Assembly (NCBI GenBank): GCA_964016885.1 | Contig: OZ024741.1 | Location: 231,570,001-231,634,000 of the forward strand | DNA length: 64,000 bases | Reading direction: 5' to 3' | Origin: Eledone cirrhosa | Taxonomy: Eukaryota | In this document: in pieces, positions 3,147 through 45,622 of the stretch | How positions within the stretch are numbered: the stretch's first letter is position 1 | How the letters are laid out: each line of letters opens with the position of its first letter | Translations under genes and position numbers: made by a program | The notes under the pieces: generated by a model | Told to the model about the DNA's origin: nothing | The model's input: the letters and a program-made list of their open reading frames with translations, nothing else | The model's database searches: none

Positions 3147-3355
3147 AAAATGTATGGCCCCGACGGCAGAGCTCAAGCCGTTTCGACGGCTATTTCGACG
3201 GCTATTCCTGGGTAATTCATTCCAGAAGTAGCCGTCGAAACGGCTTGAGCTCTACCGTCGGGCTCATGCTTTTTCCTACCCTAAGTATTGTGTACCCTAA
3301 GTATTGAGTACTCTGGTGCGTTATGGTCCATCTGGTTCCTTACCACAATTTCTTT

Positions 3356-5327: not shown

Positions 5328-5339
5328 TACATATGAATT

Positions 5340-5636
5340 TATATATAGTGTATTTTGCAATACACTGTATGCTTAATTAAAAGCATTTTAAAGACCATAC
5401 GCTATTATTTTAAAGTAGCAACATTGTCGTTTAATTAAATTTTCGGCAGGCAGGGGGAGATAAGTTGACAACGCTGTTTCGTACTGATTGGTACTTGTCA
5501 ACCGCACTGTCAACTTATCTCCACCTGCCTGTCGAAAATTTAAGTAAGCGACAATGTCGTTACTTTAATAGAATAGCGTATGGTCTTCAAAATGGTTTTA
5601 ATTAAGCATACAGTGCATTGCAAAATACACTATATA
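5340..5636. repeat. Fold-back (~130-bp arms) related to the 310-bp retrozyme family
   Basis: tatatagtgtattttgcaat...gagataagttgaca pairs with tgtcaacttatctc...attgcaaaatacactatata. The right arm and flank resemble ggtcttcaaaatg...atatcgctatttcagagc of the 310-bp unit. Confidence 0.7.
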
Positions 5637-5778
5637 TACATTCATATATATATATCGCTATATCAGAGCACCAATTCAAATATATTACATATATATATAT
5701 ATATACACATATATATACAGAAAAATATGTAAACACATACATACACTCACACACACACACATACACACACACACGCAC

Positions 5779-9403: not shown

Positions 9404-11010
9404 TAAACAGAATAGAAAATGCTGACAAATTGTTCACAGTGAAAAATAGTTTAATTAGGAATAAGTGATAATTAGTAATAGTATTGGTTAGTATTAAGTT
9501 TTGGTTTTAAGTTTTACCGGTTGCGCATTTCTAATGCTTATCAAAAATTATTTTGAATGAGGCCTTTGACAACCATCCTCCAGAATATCCCTGTGTTGAA
9601 AAAGGACAATAGAATGAACCAAATCCTACGAACACACGATATCATAAAGAGCAAAGGACAATCTAAGTCAATGAAAAACATCCTAACACATGCCAAAGTA
9701 CTGCCAACCACAACAACGAAACCCACAGTAAAAAAATGCGATAGACCCAACTGTGGCATTTGCATCAACCTAATAGAGGGTTCGGAATTCTATTTCAAAG
9801 AAGGACAACGCTTTATAGTAAAACACAATTTCACATGAGCATCCGAAAATCTAATATATTTATTAACTTGCTCAGGTTGTCGAGAACAATACATAGGACA
9901 GACCAAAGACAGCCTCCGCCAACGCATGACTGTCCATAGATCCTAAATTAAAATACGGGAATACAGGAAAATACCACCGAGTGAACACATTGATACCTGT
10001 GCCGCCCAAAATCATCCCAACTTCAGAATCTTTCCCCTCTACAAATTTAAAGATAATGCCACCCACACCCAGCGCATCAGCAAGGAATCTTACTCTATTA
10101 ACAAATACGGACCCCGTCTAAACACTTCCCCCTAAGACAAATCCACAACATACACACGTCAACATACATACCTACATCAGCATACATCTCCACCCACATA
10201 TAAACACAATGACATACGTAAACACACATGTTCTATGGTGCAACACAAATATACACAAATTTGCATACCTTTTGATGTCTATAGATATAAACGTGCCGAC
10301 ACACACACATACATAAATGCACACATGCATTGCACACTGATGGGCACATACATAGTTGTGCACAGGTATTCTAATACGGCAAGGCCTAATGAATTCCCCT
10401 TGCAGTACGTACAATCTGGACACACTCCAGATAAATATTTGTGCACAGGTATACAATTTCTGGACACACTCCAGATACATGTGTACAATTTGTGCACAGG
10501 TATACAATTTGTGCACGGGTATACAATTTCTGGACACACTCCAGATACATATTTGTGCACAGGTATTCCAATACGGCAAGGCCGAATGGATACCCCTTGC
10601 AGTACGTACCATCTGGACACACTCACACACACACCTTGGTATTATGCCAATATTATATATCATTTCACACCTTTTATTATTAAGGTTTTTGATGTTCTAT
10701 TGAGAGAATTGATTTTACTGAAAATATCGAATAATGTACACCATTTTACCAGAAATAAATACTGATCCACCCACACACACACACACATTCTCTCTCACAC
10801 ACACACATATATATATACACACACACATACACACGCGTACATTAACATACAAAGAGACATACACACACACACACGCGCGCGCCCACACACACTTCTCCGT
10901 ATAAGACAAGAGCTGAACAAATATCTTTTAACATGTTAAAATATCCCCCACACACTTACAGACACACTAACATACAAAGAGACACACACACACACACACA
11001 CAACACACAC

Positions 11011-11838: not shown

Positions 11839-11888
<50 letters not shown>

Positions 11889-11893
<5 letters not shown>

Positions 11894-13008
11894 ATAAATG
11901 CTCTGAAATAGCGATATATATGTGAAGATTGACATAGAATATTCGAAAATATTCTGTATGTTTATAATAAACATTTTGAAGACCTAATCGCTATAGAATA
12001 GAATACGTCACGTATTACAATTAGATTCTCGATAAAAGCAAGGGAAGTAACCTACGCGTTTCATTCTTATTAGAAATCTTCAGGATTACATATCCAGTGC
12101 TTTTATCGAGAATGACGCAGCTAGAGACTTATAGAATACTTAGCTGTGTACAGGAACTGGTTTGAAAGAGCGGTTGCCGGTCCGGCAGAAATTAGAAATT
12201 GGAATAAATGCTCTGAAATAGCGATATATATGTGAAGATAGACATAGAATATTCGAAAATATTCTGTATGTTTATAATAAACATTTTGAAGACCTAATCG
12301 CTATAGAATAGAATACGTCACGTATTACAATTAGATTCTCGATAAAAGCAAGGGAAGTAACCTACGCGTTTCATTCTTATTAGAAATCTTCAGGATTACA
12401 TATCCAGTGCTTTTATCGAGAATGACACAGCTAGAGACTTATAGAATACTTAGCTGTGTACAGGAACTGGTTTGAAAGAGCGGTTGCCGGTCCGGCAGAA
12501 ATTAGAAATTGGAATAAATGCTCTGAAATAGCGATATATATGTGAAGATAGACATAGAATATTCGAAAATATTCTGTATGTTTATAATAAACATTTTGAA
12601 GACCTAATCGCTATAGAATAGAATACGTCACGTATTACAATTAGATTCTCGATAAAAGCAAGGGAAGTAACCTACGCGTTTCATTCTTATTAGAAATCTT
12701 CAGGATTACATATCCAGTGCTTTTATCGAGAATGACACAGCTAGAGACTTATAGAATACTTAGCTGTGTACAGGAACTGGTTTGAAAGAGCGGTTGCCGG
12801 TCCGGCAGAAATTAGAAATTGGAATAAATGCTCTGAAATAGCGATATATATGTGAAGATAGACATAGAATATTCGAAAATATTCTGTATGTTTATAATAA
12901 ACATTTTGAAGACCTAATCGCTATAGAATAGAATACGTCACGTATTACAATTAGATTCTCGATAAAAGCTATAGCGATTAGGTCTTCAAAATGTTTATTA
13001 TAAACATA
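11889..13008 (-). repeat. Retrozyme-like tandem array R1: ~3.5 x 310 bp, one HHR per unit, short terminal inversion
   Basis: ggaataaatg recurs at 11891, 12201, 12511 and 12821. HHRs at 12047-12089, 12357-12399 and 12667-12709 (-). 12969-13008 is inverted. Confidence 0.92.
12047..12089 (-). ncRNA. Minimal type-I hammerhead ribozyme (R1)
   Basis: The minus strand reads gtaatc CTGAAGA tttct-aata-agaat GAAA CGCG TA ggttac. Stem I is extended by a 16-bp helix attctcgataaaagca/tgcttttatcgagaat. Confidence 0.92.
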
Positions 13009-13025: not shown

Positions 13026-16000
13026 ATTACGTTGTGATTATAATATTTATAATAAGAAATTGAAAAATTAAATAAAAAATAAAAAATTAAATATGATAAA
13101 TTAAAAATCCAAATTAAAGATTAAAATTTGCCTTAATATTAAACATTTAATTTAATATTAATATTAACAATTAAAAATTAAAATTAAAACAGTAGTATTT
13201 ATATTATATTAAGATGTATTAGTAATAATATATTGGTTTATATGTATATGTTATGGATTATAAATTATTTAAATAAATATATAATATTTTTCAATAGAGA
13301 AAATCTATTATAGTTTCTTTTATTAAAGTAAGTTTGTATATCGTGACCATATACTATTGCTTATTGAAAATAATAATAATTGTGAAATAAATAGGAAAAG
13401 AAAAGAAATTATACAATTCTTTAATAGCGTTAATCTGAAAGTAGAAGTAGAGAATAATTCTGAAATAGTTAATATTTTAGATGTAAATTTAAACTTAATA
13501 CTGGTCGTTATTATCCATTTCAGAAAATCAATGAGAATTTAAATTATCGTAACTTTAATTCCAATCACCTCAGATACGTTAAAAACACTATTGTAAAGTC
13601 TGTGCAGCAACGTATTTCTAGAATTTCAGCGAATAAAATTATATTTGAAGATAAGGCACTATATTATAACGAAGCGTTAAGTAGAGCAGGCTATAGTAAT
13701 GAAATTAAATACATTGATAATAAGGATGTGCTAATTAACCATAACTATAAATATAATTATAACAGGAAACCTTGCACTAACTCAAAAATAAAAAGAAGAA
13801 ATAGAACTAGAAATATATTATGGTTCGCTCCCCCTTTCTAATAAGTATTAAAACTCCAATAGCTAAATTATTTTTTAAAGCTCTAGATAAGTGTTTTCCT
13901 AAGACACACAGGTATTACACAATCTTTAATAGACATACTATTAAACTCTCATATTCCACCACTATGACTTTAGCGCAGAATATTAATAGAATTAATAATA
14001 GAAACTTAAAACCTAACCAGAATAGCATTAATACCTCTAGCAATATCCAATATAATGTTACGGCTCCCAATAGTATATATTCAGATAAATGTAATTGTAG
14101 AAATAAATCTAACTGTCCTCTAAATAATAACTGTTTAGTTAAAAATATAGTATATAATTGTAATGTCAAAACCAATGAAAATACCTATTAACTATATCGG
14201 CTCTACTTCCACAGACTTCAAATCTCGTTTCAATAGCCATACATGTTCCTTTACGAATATTGGTAAAACATCTTCAAATTCTCTATCCAACTTATCATGG
14301 AACTTAAAATCCAAGAATATTAACTATTCATTATCTTGGGAAATTATCTCCAAAGCTCCATCATATACAGCTGTATCCAAAAATATTCTTTATACTAAAA
14401 AGTAAGAACTCTATTAATTTACGAAATAATTTATTTAGTTCTTGTAAACATCGTTTAAACTCAACTGTTAGATATATATATAAAATGTAATATATGGTTA
14501 ATCTGCTTTACATAATGTTTTCTATATCCAACCAACTACAACTTCATCCTTCAGATTATATCTATATATGATTCATATATATTTAATTTACTTTCTATTA
14601 TCTCTACCTCATAAATATACTTTATATTACTTATCAATAGATTATAACCTTTTTTATATGACTACTTGAAATTCTTTTAAGAAAGATTTTTCCTTGAAAG
14701 ACTTTCTGAAGATTTAGAAAATTATTTGAAAGTCCCTTTGAAAGATGTAGAAAAACCATTATTTTCATATCTTCCAATATTTTATATCGTCAAACAATTT
14801 TAATATATATATCCAAATATTTATATATATATATGTAGAATAAAATGATTTTTATATATATATGCGGAATACCCTATAGTTTATGTTTCAACTATATTCT
14901 AAACTTTGATAACAATTATGACTTCTTATAAAATAACCTATGGTTTATGTTTTAATTATATTCTTAAGATAAAATTGTTTAACTTTATAACATTCATGAC
15001 TTCTCATAAAAAATGTTTAAAAAATTAATAAAAAACATTTTTTTAAAAGGTTTTTTATATATCCTTGGAGTCATTTGAGTTCTTAAAAAATCACTTCTAA
15101 CTTCCTTTATACTTCCTTACTGGCTTTATAATATAATTAAATAGTTATTCCTTTGTAAACTCGTAAATTTTCATAAATTTACAATTATCTGGATGTTTAA
15201 GTTTTGACTTACAACAATTAATAAATATAATTTTGCCAAACTTACTTTAATAAAATAAACTATACTAGATTTTCTCTAATATAAAATACTATATATTTAT
15301 TTAAATAATTTATAATCCATAACATACACATATAAACTAATATATTATTACTAATATATCTTAATATAATATAAATACTTCTGTTTTGATTTTAATTTTT
15401 AATTTTTAATATTAATATTTAATTAAATTTTTAATATTAAGGTAAATTTTAATCTTTAATTTGGGGTTTTTCATTTTTAATTTTTAATTTAATTTTTCAA
15501 CTTATCATTATAAATATTATAATCACAACGTAATATTATTCTTCCACGTTAATCTTATTTCTTCTTTCACTTCTTCTTTCACTTAGATATATTTACGCTC
15601 TGTATATTTTTCCATTAATATTTATTTCTTCGTCCACTCTGACTATCTTCACTATCACTATGTATAATCGTTCTTTCTTGCCTCTTCATTCTTTCTCCTT
15701 CCTTTTCTTTTTTCTCTCTCCCTTACATATCATCTTCTTCCAACAGTTTAATTTAAATAAACCGTTATCTTTTCAACTTTTCGGACACTCATTTGCATAC
15801 TCACTCATAACTTTGTATTACCCCCAATACAATATTATCTCCACCATCCAGGAAGCTCTAACCGTTAAGGTTGTCTTTTTTCCGGTTATGTAAATATTTA
15901 TTTATAAAACAAATCAGTATTTTATCTGATGAAAGCGCACCGACATTTTGGTTGCCCTTGAAATATATATAACACAATAAATATGGTTTTATTATTATAG

Positions 16001-16110
16001 TTTCCATTTATTAATATATTGTGTATTTACTCCACTAACTTGTTGAGTGCTTTATATCAGTTATCAAAAATGTTTAAGCTTGTTGAATCCCGACAATTTA
16101 AATATAACCT
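13026..16110 (+). mobile_element. Degenerate 5'-truncated Naiad-type PLE (copy C) with inverted 5' arm and 3' HHR (15918-15979)
   Basis: ORF pieces 13357-14490 are homologous to the C-terminal half of the 737-aa ORF (RNILWFAPPF, CNCRNKSNCPLNNNCL, YIGSTSTDFKSRFNSH). 13026-13310 is inverted relative to 15270-15535. CTGATGA...GAAA tatata TA lies ~1.4 kb after the ORF. Confidence 0.88.
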
Positions 16111-16111
16111 C

Positions 16112-16178
<67 letters not shown>

Positions 16179-16198
16179 TAATATATTATATATATATA

Positions 16199-18887
16199 TG
16201 TAGTGACCTACATTCCGCGGGCTCACATACATTCTCTGTGCGTGATTTGGCTCAGTTCAGCCAATCAGCGCGAGTAGAAGAGGATGTATTCCTACGCGCC
16301 CTGAGGAAGAAATTCCCCGCGAAGATTTGAAGAATCTCTCTCTTGTACCGGAAACTTCAAGCCAGCAACACGCATAATGTAACAGTGAGATATTGCACCC
16401 CTAGCCTCGCCGGCTTAACGGCGCAATGGCACATTCCATTTTGTAACCTCTTTGTATCTGTAACTTCAACCATATAAATAAACATACATTCCATCTCTAA
16501 TTACTGCTGTTGGGGTCGTTGTTATGTTACTCGTGTCTCAATAACATCTTTAATCCATGCTGCTGGAATTGGCGACCTGACGAAAGGAATATTGTAAATA
16601 GATGGTAAATAGATCGAGGGACCTTCCCTCACGTCTATGTCAACAAGATAATCCAACGAGGATACTATCACTTACCACACTGACAAATAACGACCACTGA
16701 TTCTACCACTCTGCTAATGTGGCGACTACTCAATAACCCATAACTGCTAAAGTGGTGACCGACGTAAGAGTATCACGCAGCACTTCTTATTCATTCAGTT
16801 TAACTTTTATTGCCACGTCGCAACTTGCGAAAATCCAGAATATTCCTTTTAAGATTTTTGAAAAATTAGCAGTATTTCAAAAACTTTTTCGCCACGAAAA
16901 AATTTCAAGATGGCTACCGACATGTCATGGCTACGCTTGACAACAGCAATGACAGCAGCAGCGACAGCGTTGTTTAACCACTGACCAATACAGGGAACAG
17001 TGAGTGGCAGCTTCATAACCTTACCGACGCCAACCACCACACATCGGAAATTTCGAAACGGCTTGTAACTTTACCGACGCAACCACCATACCTTCTGTCT
17101 CGTTACCACAGGGACGCGAGAAATTGAGACAGTAGTTTTCTCACCATTATGGCGTCAGACGTGACTGCCATATTTGGTGACTCCTACTCTACAGAAGATT
17201 CTTTGACATTACTTTAACAATAAGCAACACTACCGTGTGGCGGGACGGTAAGGTGGCCACGAAATCTCACAAAAACACCATACATCTAACCCCCAACGGC
17301 ATTAACAAACTTCTTTTTCAGTTTTCAGATAGAACTAGTGTCTGTACACTGGTGATGTGTGAACTATTTGACTTTGAAAAACTTTGAACTTATTGAGAAA
17401 TTTCTCTGCTCCCTTAGATTGACTTTGAATTATCAGTTTGTTACATTCACATATTTCTTTGTAGAATGCATTTACTTGTTTTGTGCTCTTTTGCTATTTG
17501 CTTGCTCATGGTTTTTGTTCATTCACATTCTTTGCTGTTTTACATGCCTGCATATGCACACATTTTTTTTATCACACACCAACATGTTGTTCTTGGTATA
17601 TGTTCTTCAAACGTAATATTCTGCGAGTCCCTTTTCAACTGGTTGAGATGCTGTCACATGCTAGCAGCTCACAGGGCTTAATCCGCTGGGTTTAAGCAGG
17701 CACCGCAACACGAGAATTCTAATTGCAGCTGAACTCAAACAGCTTCGCATCTCGTTGCACACTGATCGTCCATGACGGCCATCCGTCTTGTTGTTTTTGC
17801 CCGACTCGCTGGGAAAGCAACAAATTGAACTGGACGTGCCAATATTTCAGCCACTTCTGTGGATTCGCCCGAATTATGGAATTTACACTGCAACCCACCT
17901 ACAGATTAAACTTGCCTTTTGTTCTTTACAAAGCAACCAGCCATTTTTTCCTGGCTCCACAGCACATTCGACAATACATCTGGGGGCCATCATTTTCTCG
18001 CCAGCACTGGTAAACTACCATAATAGCTTCGTTCACAGCTACTGGTACAACGCTTACCATTAACATTTAATGCAAGAACAGCAACTTCGCCCATGTCAGA
18101 CTTTATCCGTTTTTTGTTAGACCTTTGGCGGTCACGTATAAACAACAAAACAACTGGTCATTTGACACAGCGGCTCAACACGGCCCGTAGCGCCTTATTT
18201 TTTGTTCTTGCATGCAACCTTCTGCTCAATTATTTTTTCACTGATGTGCTCTTTCAGCATTTGTTCTTGCTGATTTAATATGTGGGTCCTTGGTTTCTTC
18301 GTTATCGATTTTCGGCTGAAAATCTGGTTGGAGGTGATGTAGTGACCTACATTCCGCGGGCTCACATACATTCTCTGTGCGTGATTTGGCTCAGTTCAGC
18401 CAATCAGCGCGAGTAGAAGAGGATGTATCCCTACGCGCCCTGAGGAAGAAATTCCCCGCGAAGATTTGAAGAATCTCTCTCTTGTACCGGAAACTTCAAG
18501 CCAGCAACCCGCATAATGTAAGAGTGAGATATTGCACCCCTAGCCTCGCCGGCTTAACGGCGCAATGGCACATTCCATTTTGTAACCTCTTTGTATCTGT
18601 AACTTCAACCATATAAATAAACATACATTCCATCTCTAATTACTGCTGTTGGGGTCGTTGTTATGTTACTCGTGTCTCAATAACATCTTTAATCCATGCT
18701 GCTGGAATTGGCGACCTGACGAAAGGAATATTGTAAATAGATGGTAAATAGATCGAGGGACCTTCCCTCACGTCTATGTCAACAAGATAATCCAACGAGG
18801 ATACTATCACTTACCACACTGACAACTAACGACCACTGATTCTAACACCCTGCTAAAGTGGCGATAGCATCTATAACCAATACCTGC

Positions 18888-18891
<4 letters not shown>
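16199..18891 (+). mobile_element. Non-autonomous LTR retrotransposon (Gypsy-like), inserted in (TA)n
   Basis: Direct repeats 16199-16751 and 18338-18891 (TGTAG...CTAAA). PBS tggtgaccgacgt at 16753-16765 resembles the tRNA-Trp 3' complement TGGTGACCCCGACGT. Purine-rich ggttggaggtga precedes the 3' LTR. No gag/pol ORF. Confidence 0.85.
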
Positions 18892-20379: not shown

Positions 20380-21689
20380 ATATATATGTAATATAATATA
20401 TATATATATATAATATATATATAATACATATATATAGATATAATATATTTGCCCTACGGTTCTTATATATTTGATATATATTTATCCTTATCGAGCCCTC
20501 TTTGGATATTAGTCTTCCATTTTATTATTATTACTATAGATATAATAAATATATATAGTATATATATATAATATATATATATATAATATATATATAATAT
20601 ATCATATGTATATATAAAATATATATAATATATAATATATATTTATTATATATATATCATACATATATATATATATATATGTATAATATATATATAATAT
20701 GTATATATAATATATATATATATGATATATATATCACATATAATATATATATAATATACAATATATATTTATTATATATATAATATATATATATATATAA
20801 TAAATATATATATATACAATATATATATAATATATATATATATATAGTATATATAATATATATATATGTATAATATGTATAATATATATAATATATATTT
20901 ATATAATATAAATATATAAATATAAACATATATATATGTATATATATAATATATATAATATATAATATAATTATATAATATATATATATAATTTATTTAT
21001 ATATAATTTATTTATATATATATATAATATATATATATATATATACATCATATATATATAATTATATATAATATATATATATATATAACTATATATATAA
21101 TATATATATAATATATATATAATATATAATATATATATATATAATATATATATAATATATATATGTATAATACATATATATAGATACAATATATATATAT
21201 ATATATAATATATATATAAATAGTATATATATAAATATATAATACATATATATACTATATAATATATATAATTTATATATATAATATATAAGAAGGAAAG
21301 AAATGTGGTAAGGAACAAGGTGGACCATACCGCACCAACGTACTAAATAATTAGGGTAGTAGAGTGGGTAATAGGAACGAGTAGGACCCCGACGGCTGAG
21401 CTCAAGCCGTTTCGACGGCTAATTCTGGACTCAATTAGCCGTCAAATTAGCCGTCGAAACGGCTTGCGCTCAGCCGTCGGGGTCCTACTCGTACCTAATA
21501 TATAATATATATATATATAATATATATATAATAAATAATATATATTTATTATATATATATAATCCATATATATATATAATATATAATATATATATCATAT
21601 ATATATAATATATAATATATATATAATATATATATAATATAAAATAAATATTTATTAAATATATATAATAGATATATATATATAATATA

Positions 21690-22500
21690 AGAAATTGGAA
21701 TAAATGCTCTGAAATAACGATATATATGTGAAGATAGACATAGAATATTCGAAAATATTCTGTATGTTTATAATAAACATTTTGAAGACCTAATCGCTAT
21801 AAAATAGAATACGTCGCGTAAAATGTTTATTATAAACATACAGAATATTTTCGAATATTCTATGTCTATCTTCACATATATATCGCTATTTCAGAGCTTT
21901 TATTCCAATTTCTAATTTCTGCCGGACCGGCAACCGCTCTTTCAAACCAGTTCCTGTACACAGCTAAGTATTCTATAAGTCTCTAGATGTGTCATTCTCG
22001 ATAAAAGCACTGGATATGTAATCCTGAAGATTTCTAATAAGAATGAAACGCGTAGGTTACTTCCCTTGCTTTTATCGAGAATCTAATTGTAATACGTGAC
22101 GTATTCTATTCTATAGCGATTAGGTCTTCAAAATGTTTATTATAAACATACAGAATATTTTCGAATATTCTATGTCTATCTTCACATATATATCGCTATT
22201 TCAGAGCATTTATTCCAATTTCTAATTTCTGCCGGACCGGCAACCGCTCTTTCAAACCAGTTCCTGTACACAGCTAAGTATTCTATAAGTCTCTAGCTGT
22301 GTCATTCTCGATAAAAGCACTGGATATGTAATCCTGAAGATTTCTAATAAGAATGAAACGCGTAGGTTACTTCCCTTGCTTTTATCGAGAATCTAATTGT
22401 AATACGTGACGTATTCTATTCTATAGCGATTATGTCTTCAAAATGTTTATTATAAACATACAGAATATTTTCGAATATTCTATGTCTATCTTCATATATA
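21690..22500 (+). repeat. Second R1 retrozyme array (~2.2 x 310 bp) with inverted 5' arm
   Basis: HHRs at 22018-22060 and 22328-22370 (+). 21690-21820 is in the opposite orientation. Confidence 0.92.
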
Positions 22501-22879: not shown

Positions 22880-24440
22880 AAGTTGATGACTAAAATACAA
22901 AGAGGGCTCGATAAGGATAAATATATATCAAATATATAAGAAGCGTAGTGCAAATATTTATTAAAATAACAGATTAAAATTTAAGCAAAGAATCGCTGCT
23001 TTCACTTTTAACGGGATCTTCTGAAACTAACAAAGTCAACCTGTGATCGCAGAACTGAACATTTTAAAAAAACGGTGCAACGGGAGGAAAACAGGAAGAC
23101 GATACTTTCGTCCGTCGACACGTTCCCTGGCAAAGAACGGGAAAAACGAATATAATACGTCATTATTTAGAGCGGTGAAAAACAATTACACGCACAGACA
23201 GAACCACGTTTATGATATAAAAGAGGTCGTAGACTAATATTCTCTCAGGTGGTACATAGAGACGTTCTCTGGTAATGAACGGAAAAAACGTAGATATTAC
23301 GTCATATGTGGAGCGTGGAGAACAATTGCACTCAAAGACAAAACCACAATTGGTATAACTGAAGTCGTAAACTAAAATTCTAACTAGGTAACCGAATGAT
23401 TCTCCCCTTCAGAGTTAAGGATAAAGTAAATTAAATACAGAGGTAATTGAAATTAAATAAATACATACACGGATCCATATACGTATATACACAAGCATAC
23501 GCGAAAACATTCGCCATAGTTATACAAATACAAGCACATATAAATATGTGTGTTTGTGTGCGTGTATACAATTAATTAAATAAACGTATATAAATAAATA
23601 AATACCTATATAACAAGCGCACACACATACCTACATGTAAATACACAAATGTTCGGAGACCAACGTCAACCAAAATACGAAGTACACATATACACACACC
23701 CTACATAAGTACGAACCCGAATACTCACACAGACGCAAAACACACGTATACACATAACCAAACGCATATGTACCAGAATATATAAAATATACGCCATAAC
23801 ATATACAATCAAATATACGTACGAGAACGTATACGTACCTTCACAAAACATACAGGTAATATATACTTACCTATGCAAATAAGTAATGGTATAAACATAA
23901 AATATACTTAGCTACCACATCGATACGTAAAATATCCGCGTATAGATCGTACTATAACGTTAGGGTATAATTTGGGGCTGTAATACAGGAAGGTTTTGTG
24001 CAATTTATGTTTACGAGCCGAAATTGCCTCCGATTTTTGTTTAAGATGTGGTCTGTGGCGTAGAGTATTTCCAGGGCCTCAGCGGCGCAGAGGTCACGTG
24101 GTATTTTATTTAAGTTATACGATCTAGCCCTTGCTAGGATCTCCCCGTGTAACTTAAATTGGGTGTGGTTGTCTTTTAGACTCCAGATATAAGCTGAAAG
24201 AGACGCCATATTCCTTCTTAGAGCGTAACAAAAAGAATGGGTATGCATGTAAAGACACTCCTTGAATCTATTGCCGGTTAACCCTATGTAGGCCCTACGG
24301 GACGTGGGTGTTTCAACCTTACATTTGTAGACAATGTTACGTGTTCCTACGGCTAGGTAGTTTAGCTAAATTTGAAGCTGTGATGTTATGTGCAAGGTTA
24401 GGAGTCGTAGAGTAAGAAATGTTAATAGTATTTCTATTAA
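22880..24440 (-). mobile_element. 5'-truncated Naiad-type PLE (copy D): GIY-YIG remnant at ~23950-24350 plus 3' UTR
   Basis: NIVYKCKV...YIGLTGNRFKE...HTHSF...SLSAYIWSLK...DLCAAE. The 3' UTR recurs in fold-back form at 32865-33860. Confidence 0.8.
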
Positions 24441-25480: not shown

Positions 25481-26085
25481 ATATATATATATATATATAA
25501 ATTGAAACAAAATGAAAACGAAATTTCATTTCTCACTCTTAGTATGGCACTTACTTAAATGTAAGTATGCATGTATACGTACATACATATATGTATACAG
25601 ACGTACAGTAGCATGCACATATATATATATATATATATATACATATACATATGCATACAGGTACACATACATATATGCACGTATCAGTTTAGCGGCGCTT
25701 ATTATAACGTCGCTTTGTTCGTTTGTAAACAAACTGAACAGCCTGAATTTATGCCATACGGTGTTAAGGCAACCACGTCACCTTTTTGTTCAACACTGAC
25801 ACAGGAACGATGTACTAGTTTCAAGCTTGTTAGCTATCATCAGCACCGTTTACCCATCTGCCAGATAGTTGAACGTTTGAAAGTATATACTTTCCTTATG
25901 AAAATTAACGGCTGAGCAGCCTAATTTGCATATTGAGTGAGTTAAATCGGTCAGGCATACCGAAAACGATAAATTGAAACAAAATGAGAACGAAATTTCA
26001 TTTCTCACTCTTAGTATGGCACTTACTTAAATGTAAGTATGCATGTATACGTACATACATATATGTATACAGACGTACAGTAGCA

Positions 26086-26171
<86 letters not shown>

Positions 26172-26628
26172 CATATGCATACAGGTACACATACATATAT
26201 GCACGTATCAGTTTAGCGGCGCTTATTATAACGTCGCTTTGTTCGTTTTTAAACAAACTGAACAGCCTGAATTTATGCCATACGGTGTTAAGGCAACCAC
26301 GTCACCTTTTTGTTCAACACTGACACAGGAACGATGTACTAGTTTCAAGCTTGTTAGCTATCATCAGCACCGAACAAAGCGACGTTATAATAAGCGCCGC
26401 TAAACTGATACGTGCATATATGTATGTGTACCTGTATGCATATGTATATGTATATATATATATATATATGTGCATGCTACTGTACGTCTGTATACATATA
26501 TGTATGTACGTATACATGCATACTTACATTTAAGTAAGTGCCATATTAAGAGTGAGAAATGAAATTTCGTTTTCATTTTGTTTCAATTTATCGTTTTCGG
26601 TATGCCTGACCGATTTAACTCACTCAAT

Positions 26629-26676
26629 ATGCAAATTAGGCTGCTCAGCCGTTAATTTTCATAAGGAAAGTATATA
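26629..26676 (+). promoter_or_regulatory. Octamer (ATGCAAAT), conserved spacer and TATA-like block upstream of the R2 HHR (putative snRNA-type promoter)
   Basis: ATGCAAAT at 26629-26636 and tatata at 26671-26676. The block is conserved in R2b (52713, ~53160, ~53585) and R3 (49303, ~49769). Function is inferred only. Confidence 0.45.
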
Positions 26677-26709
26677 CTTTCGAACGTTCAACTATCTGGC
26701 AGATGGGTA

Positions 26710-26754
26710 AACGGTGCTGATGATAGCTAACAAGCTTGAAACTAGTACATCGTT
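26710..26754 (+). ncRNA. Minimal type-I hammerhead ribozyme (R2)
   Basis: aacggtg CTGATGA tagct-aaca-agctt GAAA CTAG TA catcgtt. Stem I is extended by ctggca/tgtcag and gttcaac/gttgaac. Confidence 0.93.
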
Positions 26755-27469
26755 CCTGTGTCAGTGTTGAACAAAAAGGTGACGTGGTTGCCTTAACACC
26801 GTATGGCATAAATTCAGGCTGTTCAGTTTGTTTACAAACGAACAAAGCGACGTCATAATAAGCGCCGCTAAACTGATACGTGCATATATGTATGTGTACC
26901 TGTATGCATATGTATATGTATATATATATATATGTGCATGCTACTGTACGTCTGTATACATATATGTATGTACGTATACATGCATACTTACATTTAAGTA
27001 AGTGCCATACTAAGAGTGAGAAATGAAATTACGTTTTCATTTTGTTTCAATTTATCGTTTTCGGTATGCCTGACCGATTTAACTCACTCAATATGCAAAT
27101 TAGGCTGCTCAGCCGTTAATTTTCATAAGGAAAGTATATACTTTCGAACGTTCAACTATCTGGCAGATGGGTAAACGGTGCTGATGATTGCTAACAAGCT
27201 TGAAACTAGTACTTCGTTCCTGTGTCAGTGTTGAACAAAAAGGTGACGTGGTTGCCTTAACACCGTATGGCATAAATTCAGACTGTTCAGTTTGTTTACA
27301 AACGAACAAAGCGACGTTATAATAAGCGCCGCTAAACTGATACGTGCATATATGTATGTGTACCTGTATGCATATGTATATGTATATATATATATATGTG
27401 CATGCTACTGTACGTCTGTATACATATATGTATGTACGTATACATGCATACTTACATATATATATATTT

Positions 27470-28487
27470 ATTTTTATTTGTTTTTTATTTTTATTTTTAT
27501 TAATATATTGAAATCTGTTCTCTATTTCTGCTTGATCGACAATCATGTAGAGTAAAGACAAGAATAGTATTGTTAAAATTAATATAGACTCTATATATAT
27601 GTGTATATATACACACATATATGTATACTTGAATTTTTATAGCACAATGAGAATGTTTTCGTGTGTATTGGGAGTTTGTTTATAATTATGATATAAACAT
27701 ATGAATTTTTAAAAACTAGACATAAGATCATTACTTTTCACACATTATAGATACATGTCTCATTCATGTATACTAATATTTACATTATAATGCCTGTTTT
27801 ATACGAACTAATATTTTCTACAGGATGAAGCATAGCGTTTTTAAATTCTGCCTCGTTTATGTCTGGTTATTTTCATTTTCTCTTTTTCATTTTCTCTTTT
27901 TTCTCTCTATATAACGGCTATTTTCTCTCTTAACTACATACATCTCTCTTTACATTAATACTAGAGCTAAATAAATAAATAAATAAATGTATCAACCGAT
28001 ACTCAACTTCCTAGTTTCTCTATCTATCTCTATCTATCTCTTTCTTTTTTCCTCTCTCTATATATATTTCTCTCTGTTTCTTTACATGAAGTTCTTCTCT
28101 TTATCTATCTTTCTATATCTCTCTATTTAGTCACATGCATTTCTTCTTTTTCTTCGTTTCTCTTTCTTTCTTTCTTTCTCTCTTTCTTTTTACAACTGTC
28201 CACAATATTTTTTACTGCCAAATCAACCTCCCAAATGCAAGGTGATTGAAAGGGATGTCGTATCTATTTATTTATAAGACTGTTTATATTGTATTTTGTC
28301 TGAAGAAGGCATAACATATTGTTAATATGATATCCCTGAAATATATATAACGAAATAAATATGGTTTTATAAATATAGTTTCCATTTATTTAATATCATA
28401 AATATACTCCAAATACTTGTTGAGTGCTTTTATATCAGTTATAAATATTTACTCGTTGTTAACCCAACAATTTAAATATAACTTTTC
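27470..28487 (+). mobile_element. Naiad-A 3' UTR/pLTR fragment with HHR (28292-28357)
   Basis: Colinear with about 43500-44530. CTGAAGA aggcataacatattg...GAAA tatata TA acgaaata. Confidence 0.85.
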
Positions 28488-34096: not shown

Positions 34097-34836
34097 GTTA
34101 TTCCGGGTTGAATCGGAGGTAACCACAGTAAGTAAGGTACTCAATACATAGCAGAGTATAAAAGTTTTAATATAGATGAGATTCTACAGGACTAGAACTG
34201 TTTCATTCATTAGAAATCATCAGGAATCTGGGTATCAATAAATAAAAATGGTATTTATAGGTCTCTACAAGTGGTAGGAGTGGGTGGGGAGTGGGATGGG
34301 TGCAGGTCATTGGTTGATAGAAAAGGGAATTCATTAAAAGCTAATTCTACAAAGCTATAGTTTATTTTTATTTATTTATGTTTTTAGAGTAACAAGGGCA
34401 GACAGAATTCTATAAACAGGTTCCGGATGGCATACCATTCCTTGTCATTAAGTTTCTCTTAAGCTAACAGATGTCTATAAAATCAATGGGGGGTCAGTCA
34501 TGGTCGATAGAATTAAAGAAAAGGGAGATTCTTTAAAAGCTAAAATCATTAAGGTTCTACTAAGTGACAAAGGTCTAGAGAATTCTGTAGACAGATTCAA
34601 AATACTGAGTGCATATCTTACAATTATCTTCGAACTTTTCTTAAACTAATCAACTATATGCCAAAAATCAACAGACACATTCACAAAAAAACAAAAAAAC
34701 ATACTCACTCACACACTTACGCGCAACCATAAACACACACACAAACAAACACATATACACACATAAAAACACACACACATATACACAAATATATTCATAT
34801 ACATACATATACATACACACATACATACATACAAAT

Positions 34837-34889
<53 letters not shown>

Positions 34890-35156
34890 CACACACATAT
34901 ATATATACACATACACACACACATACACATATATATACACACACACACATATATACACATATAAATACACTCACACACATACATACAAACACAAATATAC
35001 ATGTGTATACATATACACACAAATACAAATAGACATATATACATACATACACACAGATATATATACACACACATATATACATATATATATATACATATAC
35101 ATATATATATACACACACATACATACATACACATATATATACATACACATACGTAT

Positions 35157-35199
<43 letters not shown>

Positions 35200-35428
35200 T
35201 ACATACACACACATATATATATATATAAAAAAAAAACCATACACACACATATATACATATACACACACATACACACATACACACACACACATATATATAC
35301 ATATACATATATATATATATATTCATATATATAACCATATACATATATACATATACACACATACATATATATATATATATATACACATAAACAAATATAT
35401 ACACATACAAACACACACACACATACAT

Positions 35429-35481
<53 letters not shown>

Positions 35482-35561
35482 TATACACATATATAAGGAA
35501 AAAGCACCATACATACATATATATATATATATATACACATATATATATATACACACACATA

Positions 35562-35615
<54 letters not shown>

Positions 35616-35666
35616 TATACACACACCCATATATATATATATACACACATATATACACACATATAT

Positions 35667-35717
<51 letters not shown>

Positions 35718-35776
35718 CACAAAAATATATACATATATATAAAAATATACACACATATACATACATGCACACACAC

Positions 35777-35835
<59 letters not shown>

Positions 35836-35947
35836 TATATATACATATATAATATATACACATACAAACACACATACAAACATACATATACACATACAAA
35901 TATATAAACATATATATACACATATATACACGCATGCACATACATAC

Positions 35948-36006
<59 letters not shown>

Positions 36007-36040
36007 TATACATATTATATATACACATATACACACACAT

Positions 36041-36085
<45 letters not shown>

Positions 36086-37446
36086 TATACATATTATATA
36101 TACACATATACACACACATACACACACACACATATATATATATACACATGGTGGCTGCCAACTCGTTTTCGAGTACGGCCACTACTTTATATCCATGTAG
36201 GAGAACCCCTACCGATGCGCTGAACGAGTGTGACTTTTTAGTCCAGCCAGCAACTTGAAAACTCTGGTACAAACACTACACTTGTGACAATTACTGACAC
36301 ATAGTGCTGGGCCCATGGTACCATGTGACGACAAGTGCAGAGAGATCTCCAGACATAAAGCAATGCCTGTGCCGTGAAGCTTTTATAGTGAGCAAAGGCA
36401 CTGCACAAAGCCAGTCCCACTCTCTTAACCAAGATGATATTTACCAAAAAGAAGAACAAGTCAACATCATTGGATACCATCAGGGTTGCAGGTGTTATAT
36501 CAGAGTTTTCCTTCTCCTAGAATTCTGCCTTGACAAAGGCTAAGGGGTCATCTCTCCCGGTGATTTTGGATGGCCATTGACTCCCAAGAGCTCCTTTTCC
36601 CTTTGACAGGTTTTGTCAAAGGGCAAAGGAGCCCCCAAGAGTCAATGGCCATCCAAAATATATATATACATATATATATATATACACATACATACATACA
36701 TATATATATATACATTCACATACATACATATATATGTATACACACATATATATATACATATACAGACACACACATACACACATACATATATATACACACA
36801 TACATACATATATACATACACACATACATATATACACACACATACATATACATAGATATAAATATACATACAAACACACATATATATACATACAAACACA
36901 TATATATACATACATACACACATATATATATATATACACACATACATACTCATACACACATATATATATACATACACACATATATATATATATATACACA
37001 CCCACATACATACACTCATACAGATTATATATATATATACATACATACATACAAACACATATACATACATACACACATATATATATACATACATACACAT
37101 TTATATATATACACAAACACATACATACTCATACACATATATACATACACACACATATATATATGTGTGTGTGTGCCAAAGATGTTTTCATTTCGTTGAG
37201 GGACAAATTATAATTTATTTTGATATAATGTCCTTATTTTTTACATTGTCTTTGTGTGTGTATATATATATATATGTATATATGTGTGTATATATATCTA
37301 TGTGTGTGTATGAGTGGATGTATGTATATATATGTGTGTGTGTATGTATATATATGAGTGTATATGTGTGTGTGTATGTATATATATATATATGAGTGTA
37401 TGTATGTGTTTGTGTGTGTATATATATATCTATATATATGTGTATA

Positions 37447-37477
<31 letters not shown>

Positions 37478-37904
37478 CTATATATATGTGTATGAGTGTA
37501 TGTGTATGAGTGTATGTGTGTATGAGTATGTATGTATATATATATAGGTGTGTGTGTATGTATGTATATATATCTATGTATATGTGTATGAGTATGTATG
37601 TATGTATGTGTATGAGTATGTATATATATATATATATATGTGTGTATGAGTGTATATATGTATATATGTGTGTGTGAGATCGCCAAAGATGTTTTCATTT
37701 CGTTGAGGGACAAATTATAATTTATTTTGATATAATGTCCTTATTTTTTACATTGTCTTCGTGTGTATATTTATATATATGTATGTGTATGAATGTGTAT
37801 GTGTATATATATATGTGTGTGTGTGTATATATGTGTATGTGTGTGTGTGTATGAGTATGTATGTGTGTGTGTGTATATATATATATATACACATACACAC
37901 ACAC

Positions 37905-37937
<33 letters not shown>

Positions 37938-38278
37938 CATATATATACATATATATATATATATATACATACATATACACACACATATATATACACGCAC
38001 ACACATATATACACATATATATACACACACACACACACACATACACATGCATATGTATAAATATTTATATATACATATAGATATATATATATATACATAT
38101 CCATATATATACAAACATACACATACATACACAGACCTATACATAAATATACACATATATATACAGACATATAACGCATATATACACATACACACACACA
38201 TATATATACACGCACACACATATATACACATATACACACACACACACACACACATACACATGCATATGTATAAATATT

Positions 38279-38323
<45 letters not shown>

Positions 38324-38526
38324 CCATATATATACAAACATACACATACATACACAGACCTATACATAAATATACACATATATATAGAGACATATAACGC
38401 ATATATACACACATATATACACACATATATATATATATATATACACATATATATATACACACACGCATACACACATACACACACACACACACAAATATAT
38501 ATACACACTCTCTCACATATGTATAT

Positions 38527-38581
<55 letters not shown>

Positions 38582-38650
38582 TACATATATACATATATAC
38601 ATATACACATATATGCACATATATACACATATACACACATATATATATAC

Positions 38651-38709
<59 letters not shown>

Positions 38710-38784
38710 TATATATACATACAAATACACACACACACACATATATATATACACACACCTGCCCACACAACTATATATATATAT

Positions 38785-38830
<46 letters not shown>

Positions 38831-38848
38831 GCACACACATACACACAT

Positions 38849-38955
<107 letters not shown>

Positions 38956-39380
38956 CACATACATATACATAGACATATATACATAAACATACATACATAC
39001 ATACATACATACACATACATACATACATACATACATACACATATATACACATACATATATATACATATATATACACACATATACATACATATACATACAT
39101 AAATATACACACATAAAACACATATACACACAAACATATATATATATATATATACACAGACACATACATATACACACATACAAACAAATATATGCACATA
39201 CAAATAAATAGGTACTCAATAAATATACGCATATACGCAGGCACATAATGACACCTCTGCATGCAGAAAATGTAGATACGAAAGAGGTACTCACATAACC
39301 ATAGTGTCCGTATTTCAGGTTGAGGAGGGGTGGGGGTAGGGTGGGGAGGAGGTATAGGGGCCAATAGGGGGAGGTCGTTT

Positions 39381-39720
39381 TTAGCCATCGGGCTTTAACA
39401 CTGGCTTAAAGTGTTTGAAAGTTGCAAAGTTCTTGTGCATGCAGTTCGGGCAGTGTTCAGAGAGTTTGTTCAGTAGCGGGCCCTTGGCGAATAAAATTTC
39501 GTAGCTCTCTGAAATACAAAGGTCGCAGCCCTTGTGTCCTCCGTTGTAAGAGCGCGCTTTCTGGAGTATTTTCCATTTAAGCGTGAAGGGGGTGGAGTTC
39601 CTTTTGAGGTCCCAAACGTAGGAGGCGAGTGTTGTCTGATTTGATTTATCCGGTCTTCTGAAGGAGTGGGTATGGGCATACCAACGGGTCTTAAAGTTGT
39701 TGGAGGTCATGCCGATGTAT
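39381..39720 (-). pseudogene. Naiad-type GIY-YIG endonuclease C-terminal fragment (5' truncated)
   Basis: [20 protein letters not shown]...[11 protein letters not shown]...W.I...Y....CDLCISE...LNK...CMH. Confidence 0.88.
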
Positions 39721-39727
39721 ATATGTA

Positions 39728-39777
<50 letters not shown>

Positions 39778-39967
39778 TGATAGAGAGTGTGTATATATAT
39801 TTGTGTGTGTGTGTAAGTGTGTATGCGTGTATGTATATATATATGTGTATATATATATATATATATGTATGTATATATGTGTGTATATATGCGTTATATG
39901 TCTGTATATATATGTGTATATTTATGTATAGGTCTGTGTATGCATGTGTATGTTTGTATATATATGG

Positions 39968-40010
<43 letters not shown>

Positions 40011-40012
<2 letters not shown>

Positions 40013-43000
40013 CGATATTAAATAAATGGAAACTATATTTATAAAACCATATTTATTTCATTATATATATTTCAGGGATATCATATTAACAATATGTTAT
40101 GCCTTCCTCAGACAAAATACAATATAGACAGTTTTATAGATAAATAGATTTGACATACCGTTCAACATCGACTAGTATTTGAAAAAGTTGATTTGGCAGT
40201 GAAAAATTGTAAACAGAAAGAAAGAAAGAGAGAAAGAAGGAAAGAAAGAAAGAAAACGAAGAAAAAGAAGAAAAAAAGAAAAAGAAGAAATGCATGCAAC
40301 AACATAGAGAGATGGAAAGATAGATAAAGAGAAGAACTTCATGTAAAGAAACAGAGAGAGATATATATAGAGAGAGGAAATAGATAGAGATAGATATATA
40401 TAGAGAAAAGTAGGTAGTTGAAACATCCGTTGAATGAACGTATCAATGATACATTTATTTATTTATTTATTTATTTAGCTCTAGTATTAATGTAAGGGAG
40501 ATATATGTGGTTAGGAAAGAAACCAGCCGTTATATAGAGAGAAAAATGAAAAGTAACCAGACATAGGCGAGGCAGAATTTAAAAACCCTATGTTTTAATG
40601 TAGAAATATTAGTTCGTATAAAAACCAGGCAATATAATGTAAATATCAGTATTCCTGAATGAGACACGTATCCATAATGTGTGAAAAGTAATGATCTTAT
40701 GTCTAGTTTTATATCTTGCTCCAATACTGTTGAGCGCTTTATATTATAACTGAAAAAATGGAATTCTTTAAGATTACTTCCTCTTTAAAAGACATACCTC
40801 TACCTAGAAAGAAAGACTTTATAAAACAATTAATAGATAAATCTGACTCTTTTATAAGGAGAATCAGGTGGCGAGCATTCCACTTTGATAAATCTAATAT
40901 AAATGAAAATGTCTCGGACTTAAACAAAGTTTTCAAATCTAAAAGAAATCCACCCCCTAACAAACTTTTATCTGACTTTGAAAACGATATAATTTCTATC
41001 ATACAAGGGGTCAAATTCAAGAGAAACTTCAAAGGCCAGGAATATCTGAAAGGCATTAAGGATAATATTGAGAGCTTAGAGAAAACTGAGAAGATCTTGG
41101 TGAAATCTGACAAGACCAACAACCTCTATGGAGTGCAGAAACACATGTTTAATGGCCTCATACTGAAGGAACTGAGGAAAAAGTACAAGGTAGCAGATAA
41201 GGCCGAGCTTGAGAAAATGAATGTCGAAGCATCTTGTATAATGCACGAGTTGGAAATTGAGAACAGAACACAACCTTTCGTGCCCAGGAAACCGAAGATC
41301 AATATGAAAGATCACAAAAGGAATTTTGAAAATGACTTGCCAGTTAGATTGATCGCACCATCAAAATCGGACCTGGGCAAATTAAGCAAAAACATTCTTG
41401 ACAGGGTGATACAGCAAATTAAAAACTTGGATTGTTTACCTAACCTGAGCTTGTGGAAGGGAACTGGAGAGGTTGTTGAGTGGTTTAAGCAAATTAAATA
41501 TAACAATAATAATAAGTTTATTCAACTTGATATTGCTAACTATTATTCTTCTATTACCCCTAATCTACTAAATAAGGCACTAAATTACGCATTCAAACAT
41601 ACAGACCTAACTAGCAATGAAATGCACATTATATTATCGGCTAGGAAAACATTGATAGAATTTAATGACCAACTATGGACCAGAGCAGATAGAGATAGCA
41701 ATTTTGACATTACTATGGGATCATCCGACTCAGCTCAGGTAACTGACCTTGTGGGCTTATTTTTAATCAATTCGCTACATAGGAAAATACCTGATACTAC
41801 CGGAGGTTTATATAGAGATGACATGCTTTTACTTATTGATAATAATAACTCTGAACTAAATAGAAAAAGAAAACAAATTACACAATTTTTTAATTACTTT
41901 AATCTAAAAATAGAAATTGAGAACAACCATAGAATAGTCAATTTCCTAGATATAACATTAAATCTCAACACATGTCTTCACTATCCTTTTCACAAGTTGA
42001 ATGAAAACTTAAACTATGTCAGCTTTAACTCTAACCACCCCAGATCTGTCAAAAACACTATAGTAAACTCTGTTCAAAAACGTATCTCTAGAATCTCGTC
42101 TAATAGAAAGATTTTCGACGAAAAATCCCAGTACTACAATGAAGCGTTAGCTAGAGCAGGATATAGTGATAAGATTATGTACATAGATAATGATAGACAA
42201 ACTAAACAAAATAACAACTATTTTAATTACGGCCGCAACCTTAACAACTATAATAGAAAGCATTACAATAATTCCAAAAGCCAAAAAAGAAATAGAACTA
42301 GGAACATAATATGGTTTGCCCCCCCTTTCTCACTAAACATTAAAACCCACATCGCTAAACTATTTTTTAAAGCTCTTGATAATCGCTTCCCTAGAACACA
42401 TAGGTATCACTCAATTTTCAATAGACATACTATAAAATTAACCTACTCATCCACCAAAAATTTAGCACAAAATATTAATAGAATAAATAATAGGAACTTA
42501 AAACCTAGCGATAATAGCATAAATAATATACAAGTTAACAAATGTAACTGTAGAGATAGATCTAAATGTTCGTTAAATAACAACTGCTTAGTTAAAAATA
42601 TAATATACAACTGTAATGTTAAAACGGACTCTAATTCTTTTAACTACGTCGGTTCCACATCGACGGAATTTAAACTTCGCTATAATAACCACAAGAATTC
42701 TTTCACAGATCCAAGCAAAAAATCTTCAACAGCACTATCAGGCGTACTCTGGCAACTTAGGCAAGATAACGTTAGATATTCGACGGCTTGGGATATAGTC
42801 TCAAGAGGGATTCCTTTTAATTCATCCCCTGAGACATGTGACCTCTGCGCGGAGGAGATATTCTTTATACTAAAATCTAAAAATTCCCTTAATCTACGGA
42901 CAAATTTATTCAGTTGCTGCAAACATAGATTGAACTCAACTTTTAAATATAAATTTAAATTTAAAATGTAGTATATTTAGTTTGATTTATAATTATTTGG

Positions 43001-43445: not shown

Positions 43446-43478
<33 letters not shown>

Positions 43479-44530: not shown

Positions 44531-44646
44531 CATATATGCATATATAAATATTTATACATATGCATGTGTATGTGTGTGTGTGTGTGTGTGTATATATATG
44601 TGTATATATGTGTGTGCGTGTATATATATGTGTGTGTATACGTATG

Positions 44647-45620: not shown

Positions 45621-45622
45621 GG

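What the first reader, a model, noticed from the sequence alone, without database searches (positions are those of the whole stretch)
11889..13008. R1: near-identical 310-bp self-cleaving tandem unit predicted to yield a 310-nt structured (circular) RNA
Seen: units differ by only 1-2 substitutions, and a second array lies 10 kb away (21690-22500) in the opposite orientation. The HHR stem I continues through an internal loop (ctggatat/ttccct) into a perfect 16-bp helix. The rest of the unit is rich in small hairpins (agaatatt-cgaa-aatattct, tgtttat-a-ataaaca, aatacgtcacgtatt, tgccggtccggca). Inference: a recently active non-LTR retrozyme.
Basis: partly seen in the sequence, partly recalled or inferred. 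Interest (0 to 1): 0.7.

Follow-up and report, generated by a model that had tools for sequence, protein, structure and literature searches.

The report
Retrozyme arrays copied from one RNA
This is one of well over a thousand young insertions of a 310-base non-coding repeat with a predicted self-cutting RNA motif, and the way the insertions are built suggests that a borrowed Penelope-type reverse transcriptase copies a single small RNA, likely a circle, round and round from both ends of the cut host DNA.

Summary
The repeat is real and is a non-LTR retrozyme: 310-bp ORF-less unit, type I hammerhead (minus strand in 11888-12969), at least 11,488 cores genome-wide. Insertions are two tandem arrays joined head to head in (AT)n; in 64 of 64 unselected two-arm loci one arm ends at unit position ~139 and the other at ~165, the Penelope 'tail on one end'. 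Of 127 loci (923 units), 126 carry one haplotype; 30 private variants are fixed in every unit, 21 of them A>G on the ribozyme strand against 21 of 215 single-unit changes (p=3e-12), mostly in the long helix. Best reading: one ADAR-edited monomer RNA, likely circular, templated all units of both arms by twin-primed rolling-circle reverse transcription. Not shown: cleavage, expression, circles, the helper element. Eight loci share mosaic variants between arms. The scan found this family and the two-arm/circle reading before on other DNA of this genome, and ADAR scars in other Penelope elements.

The parts
11842..11889 (.). (AT)n microsatellite target next to the arm's 3' end
11888..12969 (-). 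Array 1, 'long-end' arm: 3.49 units, unit position 14 to 165 (position 1 = base after the predicted cleavage site)
12969..13008 (+). 40-bp inverted stub (unit 57-96): start of the second arm, cut short and joined to an older Penelope-like copy (deletion inferred)
12667..12709 (-). Type I hammerhead, copy 1; predicted cleavage after 12673
12357..12399 (-). Type I hammerhead, copy 2; predicted cleavage after 12363
12047..12089 (-). Type I hammerhead, copy 3; predicted cleavage after 12053
11888..11922 (-). 'Tail' (unit ~131-165) between the two fixed arm ends, present at this end only
21690..21820 (-). Array 2, long-end arm (unit 39-169) running into an AT-rich microsatellite
21820..22500 (+). 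Array 2, short-end arm (unit 76 to 136, 2.2 units); hammerhead cores at 22024 and 22334, predicted cleavage after 22054 and 22364
21994..22082 (+). Rod around the hammerhead: 16-bp helix (21994-22009 with 22067-22082), internal loop, stem I
13026..16115 (+). Older, frameshifted Hydra-like Penelope element abutting the stub (own inverted arm 13026-13336, 88% alike to 15237-15534; RT/GIY-YIG fragments about 13337-14510); neighbour, not shown to be the parent

Best explanation
The 310-bp unit is a non-autonomous Penelope-dependent retrozyme whose insertions are two head-to-head tandem arrays in (AT)n, likely made when a Penelope RT/endonuclease cuts the microsatellite and both DNA ends prime reverse transcription, at two fixed sites about 26-35 nt apart, on one monomer RNA that is probably a circle and is copied round several times. 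Shown here: unit, copy number, two-arm layout, strict short-end/long-end pairing, one haplotype per locus, strand-specific A>G fixed in all units, microhomology at the central joint. Inferred: tandem transcripts are cut by the hammerhead acting as a dimer (helix III is one pair plus a palindromic tetraloop), monomers are ligated, ADAR edits the rod-like helix, two RT subunits roll with strand displacement, the two cDNA 3' ends anneal by microhomology and host repair fills in. The short end primes by pairing of the (AT)n primer with an AU run in the template; the long end has only about 2 nt of homology.
For: Pairing rule: 31 of 31 classifiable junctions in 41 best-score loci (3 of 34 unclassifiable), 22 of 22 in position-ordered loci (one a duplicate, 1 more cut off), 12 of 12 among 20 loci picked by the short end only (6 single-arm, 2 cut, no short+short). 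Genome-wide 1,333 exact short-end and 1,137 long-end junctions with (AT)n, reversed-pattern control 0. One template: 126 of 127 loci pure at subfamily sites; 30 private variants fixed in all covering units (3 to 25) in 25 loci, 26 of the 30 spanning both arms. RNA editing mark: A>G 21 of 30 fixed vs 21 of 215 single-unit changes (p=3e-12); A>G:T>C 21:2; by distinct site 9 of 17 (p=4e-5); still 8 of 17 without the two hot sites (p=3e-4); 8 of 9 sites paired; 12 of 16 independent events in the rod/stem I that holds 16 of 92 A; 5' neighbour U in 16 of 21, never G; hot sites recur on up to five haplotype backgrounds and are all-or-none (2 partial cases). No free 5' end: 911 crossings of the cleavage site with 6 changes at the two flanking bases; arm starts at unit 1-3 in 3 of 236, as chance gives. 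Twin priming, not fold-back: arm-start offsets uniform (KS p=0.56), 7 shared vs 114 unshared unit-specific changes in nearest register, overlap of 2 nt or more at 51 of 79 joints vs 18% expected. Ribozyme alleles: core position N7 has three fixed alleles, stem I changes keep pairing, no fixed change in the 12 invariant core bases. Literature: two internal RT start sites defining the tail, both strands cut and extended, predicted dimer (PMC11167929); inverted copy with tail on one end and (TA)n targets (PMC8557442).
Against: No RNA, cleavage or circle was observed. Eight loci share a variant between arms that is present in only some units; five lie in nearest register and may be later conversion within the palindrome, three do not, so multimer templates occur or conversion is wider. 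One such locus shares a catalytic G12 change. 16 of 127 loci have variants in two or more but not all units, so local duplication also acts. Single-unit changes are not depleted in the core (10 of 2,400 vs 155 of 61,177 bases). The absence of fixed core changes is not significant alone (about 1.6 expected). The antisense strand folds better than the sense (z -6.3 vs -4.4) and the active-like fold lies 3.6 kcal/mol above the circle's minimum. In vitro the anole Penelope used unprocessed RNA and did not need its hammerhead, with no strand difference in start site (PMC11167929); 8 of 9 Xenopus dimers did not cleave (10.64898/2026.07.22.740005). No autonomous element with this priming module was found. 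Assembly polishing could smooth units; the sequencing method is unknown.
Confidence: 0.72

Rival explanations
1. Same Penelope twin priming, but the template is a cleaved linear monomer held as a nicked circle by stem I, and the RT jumps end to end repeatedly.
For: Gives the same monomer bottleneck and all-or-none edits; stem I and the rod keep the two ends together.
Against: 905 of 911 crossings are clean at the two flanking bases and arm starts do not pile up at the cleavage site, 3 of 236; related retrozymes form circles in vivo (PMC7229834).
Confidence: 0.12
2. The template is an uncleaved linear multimer read from a source array; the hammerhead is a passenger, as for the anole Penelope in vitro.
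For: Eight loci with mosaic variants shared by both arms, one with a dead core; PMC11167929.
Against: Editing of a multimer should give mosaic A>G, but it is all-or-none over up to 19 units; 22 of 76 young loci have fixed private variants and 5 have mosaics; serial 5'-truncated copying cannot fix new alleles in all units nor keep arms of 27 units.
Confidence: 0.1
3. Short insertions were expanded afterwards at the DNA level (unequal crossing-over, circular DNA), as a satellite; uniformity is homogenisation.
For: Model proposed in 10.64898/2026.07.22.740005; repeated variants inside some long arms.
Against: The youngest loci already have long arms on both sides with almost no changes; arm lengths correlate (rho 0.33); it does not explain strand-specific A>G or the fixed ends.
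Confidence: 0.05

Closest known systems
Animal non-LTR retrozymes (coral, mussel, axolotl: PMC7229834; Xenopus and other vertebrates: bioRxiv 10.64898/2026.07.22.740005)
   Same: ORF-less tandem unit of 150-450 bp, low GC (34%), one type I hammerhead per unit, co-occurring Penelope-like elements. The ribozyme joins the one-pair helix III with palindromic tetraloop of axolotl HHR_Amex1 to the U-U base of helix II of HHR_Amex2.
   Different: The sections read describe no head-to-head two-arm insertions, fixed paired ends or editing marks; rolling-circle copying is there a hypothesis. Here no RNA data and no parent pLTR.
Penelope-like elements: Poseidon PAc of anole (PMC11167929); Naiad, Hydra and non-autonomous Chlamys/MRC1 (PMC8557442)
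   Same: Inverted 5'-truncated copy, tail of about 30-40 bp on one end, AT-rich/(TA)n targets, two internal RT start sites downstream of a hammerhead; multi-copy head-to-tail non-autonomous forms.
   Different: No ORF; both arms are multi-unit; the two sites are used strictly one per arm; the short site is homologous to the (AT)n primer, whereas PAc primed without homology.
Newt satellite 2 / amphibian hammerhead repeats (as summarised in PMC7229834)
   Same: About 330-bp tandem unit, weak helix III, cleavage as dimers.
   Different: Here dispersed over more than a thousand small two-arm loci with defined ends.

Membership tests
non-LTR retrozyme | Short (150-450 bp) tandem unit with one type I hammerhead per unit | tested here: met
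   Rfam only sub-threshold
non-LTR retrozyme | No protein coding, no LTR/PBS/PPT; GC under 50% | tested here: met
   no ORF of 80 aa or more over either array except low-complexity frames; 106 of 310 G+C; no tRNA-primer search was made
non-LTR retrozyme | Dispersed multicopy, recently mobile | tested here: met
non-LTR retrozyme | Self-cleavage in vitro (monomer or dimer) | not testable with these tools
   only fold, dimer helix III (-9.5 kcal/mol) and allele pattern
non-LTR retrozyme | Expressed as linear and circular monomer RNA | tested here: inconclusive
   indirect genomic signs only
non-LTR retrozyme | Target-site duplication where present | tested here: inconclusive
   flanks are microsatellite; no clear unique duplication in 40 loci
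Penelope-like element (as mobiliser) | Inverted 5'-truncated copy with tail on one end | tested here: met
Penelope-like element (as mobiliser) | (TA)n target bias | tested here: met
Penelope-like element (as mobiliser) | Homology to the pLTR of an autonomous element | tested here: inconclusive
   only a 28-bp hammerhead core, 89% alike to one young family; three families looked at, in part, of many
autonomous Penelope-like element | RT plus GIY-YIG ORF | tested here: not met
   the unit is non-coding

The most novel reading that the evidence does not exclude
The genome holds a direct record that one ADAR-edited circular RNA is copied by a dimeric Penelope enzyme from both cut DNA ends at once, each subunit bound to its own start site, by rolling-circle reverse transcription; RNA edits are thereby written into every unit of new insertions and are a main source of the ribozyme's heritable evolution.
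Probability: 0.5. Interest if true: 0.78.

Novelty: new member of a known kind. Interest (0 to 1): 0.58.

Why it matters
How animal retrozymes move, and what the hammerhead and the 'tail' of Penelope elements are for, are open questions: rolling-circle copying by Penelope enzymes has been proposed but not shown (PMC7229834), and in vitro work left the later steps open (PMC11167929). This family gives a 310-nt substrate with two mapped start sites, a strict one-site-per-arm rule and natural barcodes, so the model can be tested directly. It would also be a case of RNA editing feeding heritable change, and of an RT that writes tandem copies from a small circle.

Tried and rejected
Rfam at gathering score: nothing; the miRNA hits at E-value level are microsatellite noise. 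Sequencing runs: no RNA holder listed. Laying contigs: one run breaks into 590 pieces; three runs each hold a single 340-base contig (310 + 30, what a cycle in an assembly graph gives) of the sister haplotype; kind unknown, and low-depth host DNA would look the same, so not used as evidence. My first reading, an uncleaved multimer as main template, was dropped after younger loci showed fixed variants. Fold-back copying of arm 1 into arm 2 rejected. The adjacent Penelope fragment as parent rejected: no unit homology and much older. Parent or helper search: 30 loci of the window's intact family, about 15 of a second, 25 of a Neptune-like family gave no priming module; the one hit was a neighbouring sister retrozyme. 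Pfam gave only a weak GIY-YIG hit for one fragment and none for the intact ORF. The constrained circular fold failed numerically; the energy was evaluated instead. Paper searches for 'Penelope + hammerhead + twin priming' (0 papers), 'retrozyme + A-to-I + rolling circle' (2 unrelated), five-term search from 2021 (1 review), host guess 'octopus' and ADAR/retrotransposition (listing only) found no report of this anatomy in retrozymes; the library lacks most subscription papers.

Full report
What is there. The 310-bp repeat is at 11888-12969 (3.5 units, 99%) and 21820-22500. I number the unit from the base after the predicted cut. The hammerhead is on the minus strand in array 1 and on the plus strand in the long arm of array 2, cut sites after 22054 and 22364. 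It is type I: six-pair stem I, CUGANGA, a U-U at the base of a four-pair helix II, GAAA, and a helix III of one pair closed by a palindromic tetraloop, which can form six pairs between two copies (-9.5 kcal/mol). PMC7229834 (parts 2-4 of 6 read) describes both features in axolotl retrozymes, which cleave well only as dimers. Stem I continues into a perfect 16-bp helix. The circular 310-mer folds at -69 kcal/mol, z -4.4 against 100 shuffles, but the antisense folds better (z -6.3), so the fold score says nothing about strand. Rfam does not call the ribozyme at threshold.

Family size and age. Exact 23-base core patterns match 2,600 (window type) and 8,888 (sister type) times, controls 0. The first 41 loci differ from the unit by 165 substitutions in 64,030 bases. 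Pooled over 127 loci and 923 units (one low-quality duplicated locus left out, one insertion fetched twice counted once), the 76 youngest loci have 0.4 single-unit changes per kb, the 51 older ones, which include both window arrays, 1.8.

Insertion anatomy. Most loci are two tandem arrays joined 5' to 5', their 3' ends pointing out into (AT)n. 5' ends fall anywhere; 3' ends fall at about 139 (range 125-139) or about 165 (155-172). In every two-arm locus where both ends could be classed there is one of each: 31 of 31 in best-score loci (34 junctions, 3 unclassifiable), 22 of 22 in position-ordered loci of contig 1 (one duplicate, one more cut off), 12 of 12 among 20 loci chosen by the short end alone (6 single-arm, 2 cut). 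Forty further loci were chosen as pairs and do not count. Genome-wide there are 1,333 short-end and 1,137 long-end exact junctions. At the short end the AT run often overwrites base 131 (17 loci), so the primer pairs with the template's AU run and the tail is 26-35 nt. This is the layout drawn for Penelope-like elements, inverted 5'-truncated copy and a 30-40-bp tail at one end (bioRxiv 10.1101/2021.04.23.441226 and PMC8557442, passages and section 11), and PMC11167929 (parts 1-2 of 4, the main text) showed that the tail lies between two internal RT start sites and that both target strands are cut and extended. In 102 simple two-arm loci (six complex ones left out) the two arm starts are unrelated (KS p=0.56), either arm can be longer (52 vs 47), the joint overlaps by 2 nt or more in 51 of 79 cases against 18% expected (BLAST ends, so approximate), and only 7 of 121 unit-specific changes are mirrored. 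That fits two cDNAs primed apart and joined by microhomology, not fold-back. Window array 2 is a complete example (169/136). Array 1 keeps its long-end arm and 40 bp of the second arm, which is joined to an older frameshifted Penelope copy, probably by a later deletion.

What the template was. 126 of 127 loci are pure at the eleven subfamily alleles. Thirty private substitutions are fixed in all covering units (3 to 25) in 25 loci, 26 of them across both arms. Twenty-one are A>G read on the ribozyme strand and two T>C, whereas single-unit changes are 21 A>G and 30 T>C of 215 (p=3e-12); counted once per background 16 of 24, once per site 9 of 17; the excess holds in young and old loci and without the two hot sites. 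Eight of nine sites are paired, 12 of 16 events lie in the rod and stem I (p=7e-7), the 5' neighbour is U in 16 of 21 and never G. That matches ADAR's taste for duplex RNA and 5' U (recalled, not from a call). The hot sites recur on three to five haplotype backgrounds and are all-or-none, with two partial cases. Some of these may be inherited lineages rather than fresh edits, but each still needs one unit to have been multiplied. An edit in one unit of a linear multimer would give a mosaic; an edit in a monomer copied round gives this. Arms cross the cleavage site 911 times with 6 changes at the flanking bases, and 3 of 236 arms start at positions 1-3, as chance gives: the RT met no free end there.

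Results against. Eight loci share variants between arms in only some units; five are in the nearest hairpin register, three not. One carries a G12 core change in four units. Sixteen loci have partial repeats of a variant. So multimer templates, conversion or local duplication also happen. The first 41 loci alone had led me to favour a multimer. Single-unit changes hit the core at the neutral rate. The anole enzyme did not need cleavage in vitro, and Li et al. (10.64898/2026.07.22.740005, parts 1-3 of 5) saw cleavage in 1 of 9 Xenopus dimers and favour DNA-level expansion. No expression was shown here.

Selection on the RNA. Subfamily alleles cluster in the variable parts of the ribozyme: three alleles at N7, pairing-preserving changes in stem I, loop II changes, and a change that closes the U-U pair; none is fixed in the 12 invariant bases. 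An older sister family of about 330 bp (1,776 candidates) has a different ribozyme module but the same priming region and ends; in an alignment of 17 sequences two hairpins just upstream of the short site keep three pairs by double changes, few independent events, so modest support.

The helper. The genome holds young autonomous families: a 745-codon frame at 40734-42971 with the RWK-like, DKT and CxCx5C marks of the Hydra clade (section 11 of PMC8557442), 31,252 candidates, itself two-armed in (AT)n; a second Hydra-like family, 99% alike among copies, whose hammerhead core is 89% alike to R1's over 28 bases; a Neptune-like family. Of 18 single-arm loci, one (L062) has a young arm of the second family head to head with R1, and one (L174) passes from R1 into the tail of a relative of the first. 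Either could be a co-insertion or a later rearrangement; tails of those families are longer (about 60-90 nt by eye). The helper is not identified.

Verdict. Earlier notes of this scan, read after my analysis, report the same family with the two-arm and circle reading on other DNA of this genome and ADAR scars in Penelope copies; they are not independent support. In their few displayed lines I saw no use of fixed A>G changes as a barcode for this family. Interest 0.58.

Noticed in passing
window 40013-44532: Young two-armed Hydra-type Penelope element with an open 745-codon frame (40734-42971), arms 99.3% alike, hammerhead-like motif near 44346, tail of about 90 nt; Pfam finds nothing in the protein.
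   Followed up: partly
window about 34170-46900: Arms of a second young Penelope family (hammerheads at 34223 minus and 46845 plus, arms 97.6% alike; GIY-YIG piece about 39300-39720 minus) with the first element nested inside; its UTRs contain long microsatellite-like tracts.
   Followed up: partly
window 25500-27700, 48800-50200, 52200-54200: Three other hammerhead tandem families (periods about 464, 466 and 425-447 bp), each with cores on both strands in the same head-to-head layout.
   Followed up: no
window 5330-5740: Diverged two-armed relative that shares R1's priming module but has a different, decayed ribozyme module.
   Followed up: partly
window 15917-16140 and copies near 5100, 8530, 25280, 28260, 44310: Repeated Penelope 3' end with a hammerhead that has a long helix II, ending in (AT)n.
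   Followed up: no
window 16198-16751 and 18337-18891: Direct repeats of 555 bp, 97.5% alike, flanking 1.6 kb without a long ORF; inserted in (AT)n; LTR-like or pLTR-like non-autonomous element.
   Followed up: no
window 21340-21500; also near 3180-3310: Short inverted-repeat element in (AT)n that also recurs next to R1 ends in other loci (L052, L064, L066, L273).
   Followed up: no
L203:2690-5450, L218, L224, L205, L208, L220: 311-bp subfamilies with one base added just after the cleavage site, with C or U at N7.
   Followed up: partly
L063 flanks; L046:2430-2492; L056:2700-2950: Host or repeat flanks duplicated in inverted form next to insertions.
   Followed up: no
L255:4-6788: Arm of more than 21 units with three linked variants in 4-5 of 25 units: higher-order repeat or multimer template.
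   Followed up: no
window 9557-10135 and 23952-24365: Fragments of a Neptune-like (8,961 candidates) and a further Hydra-like Penelope family.
   Followed up: partly
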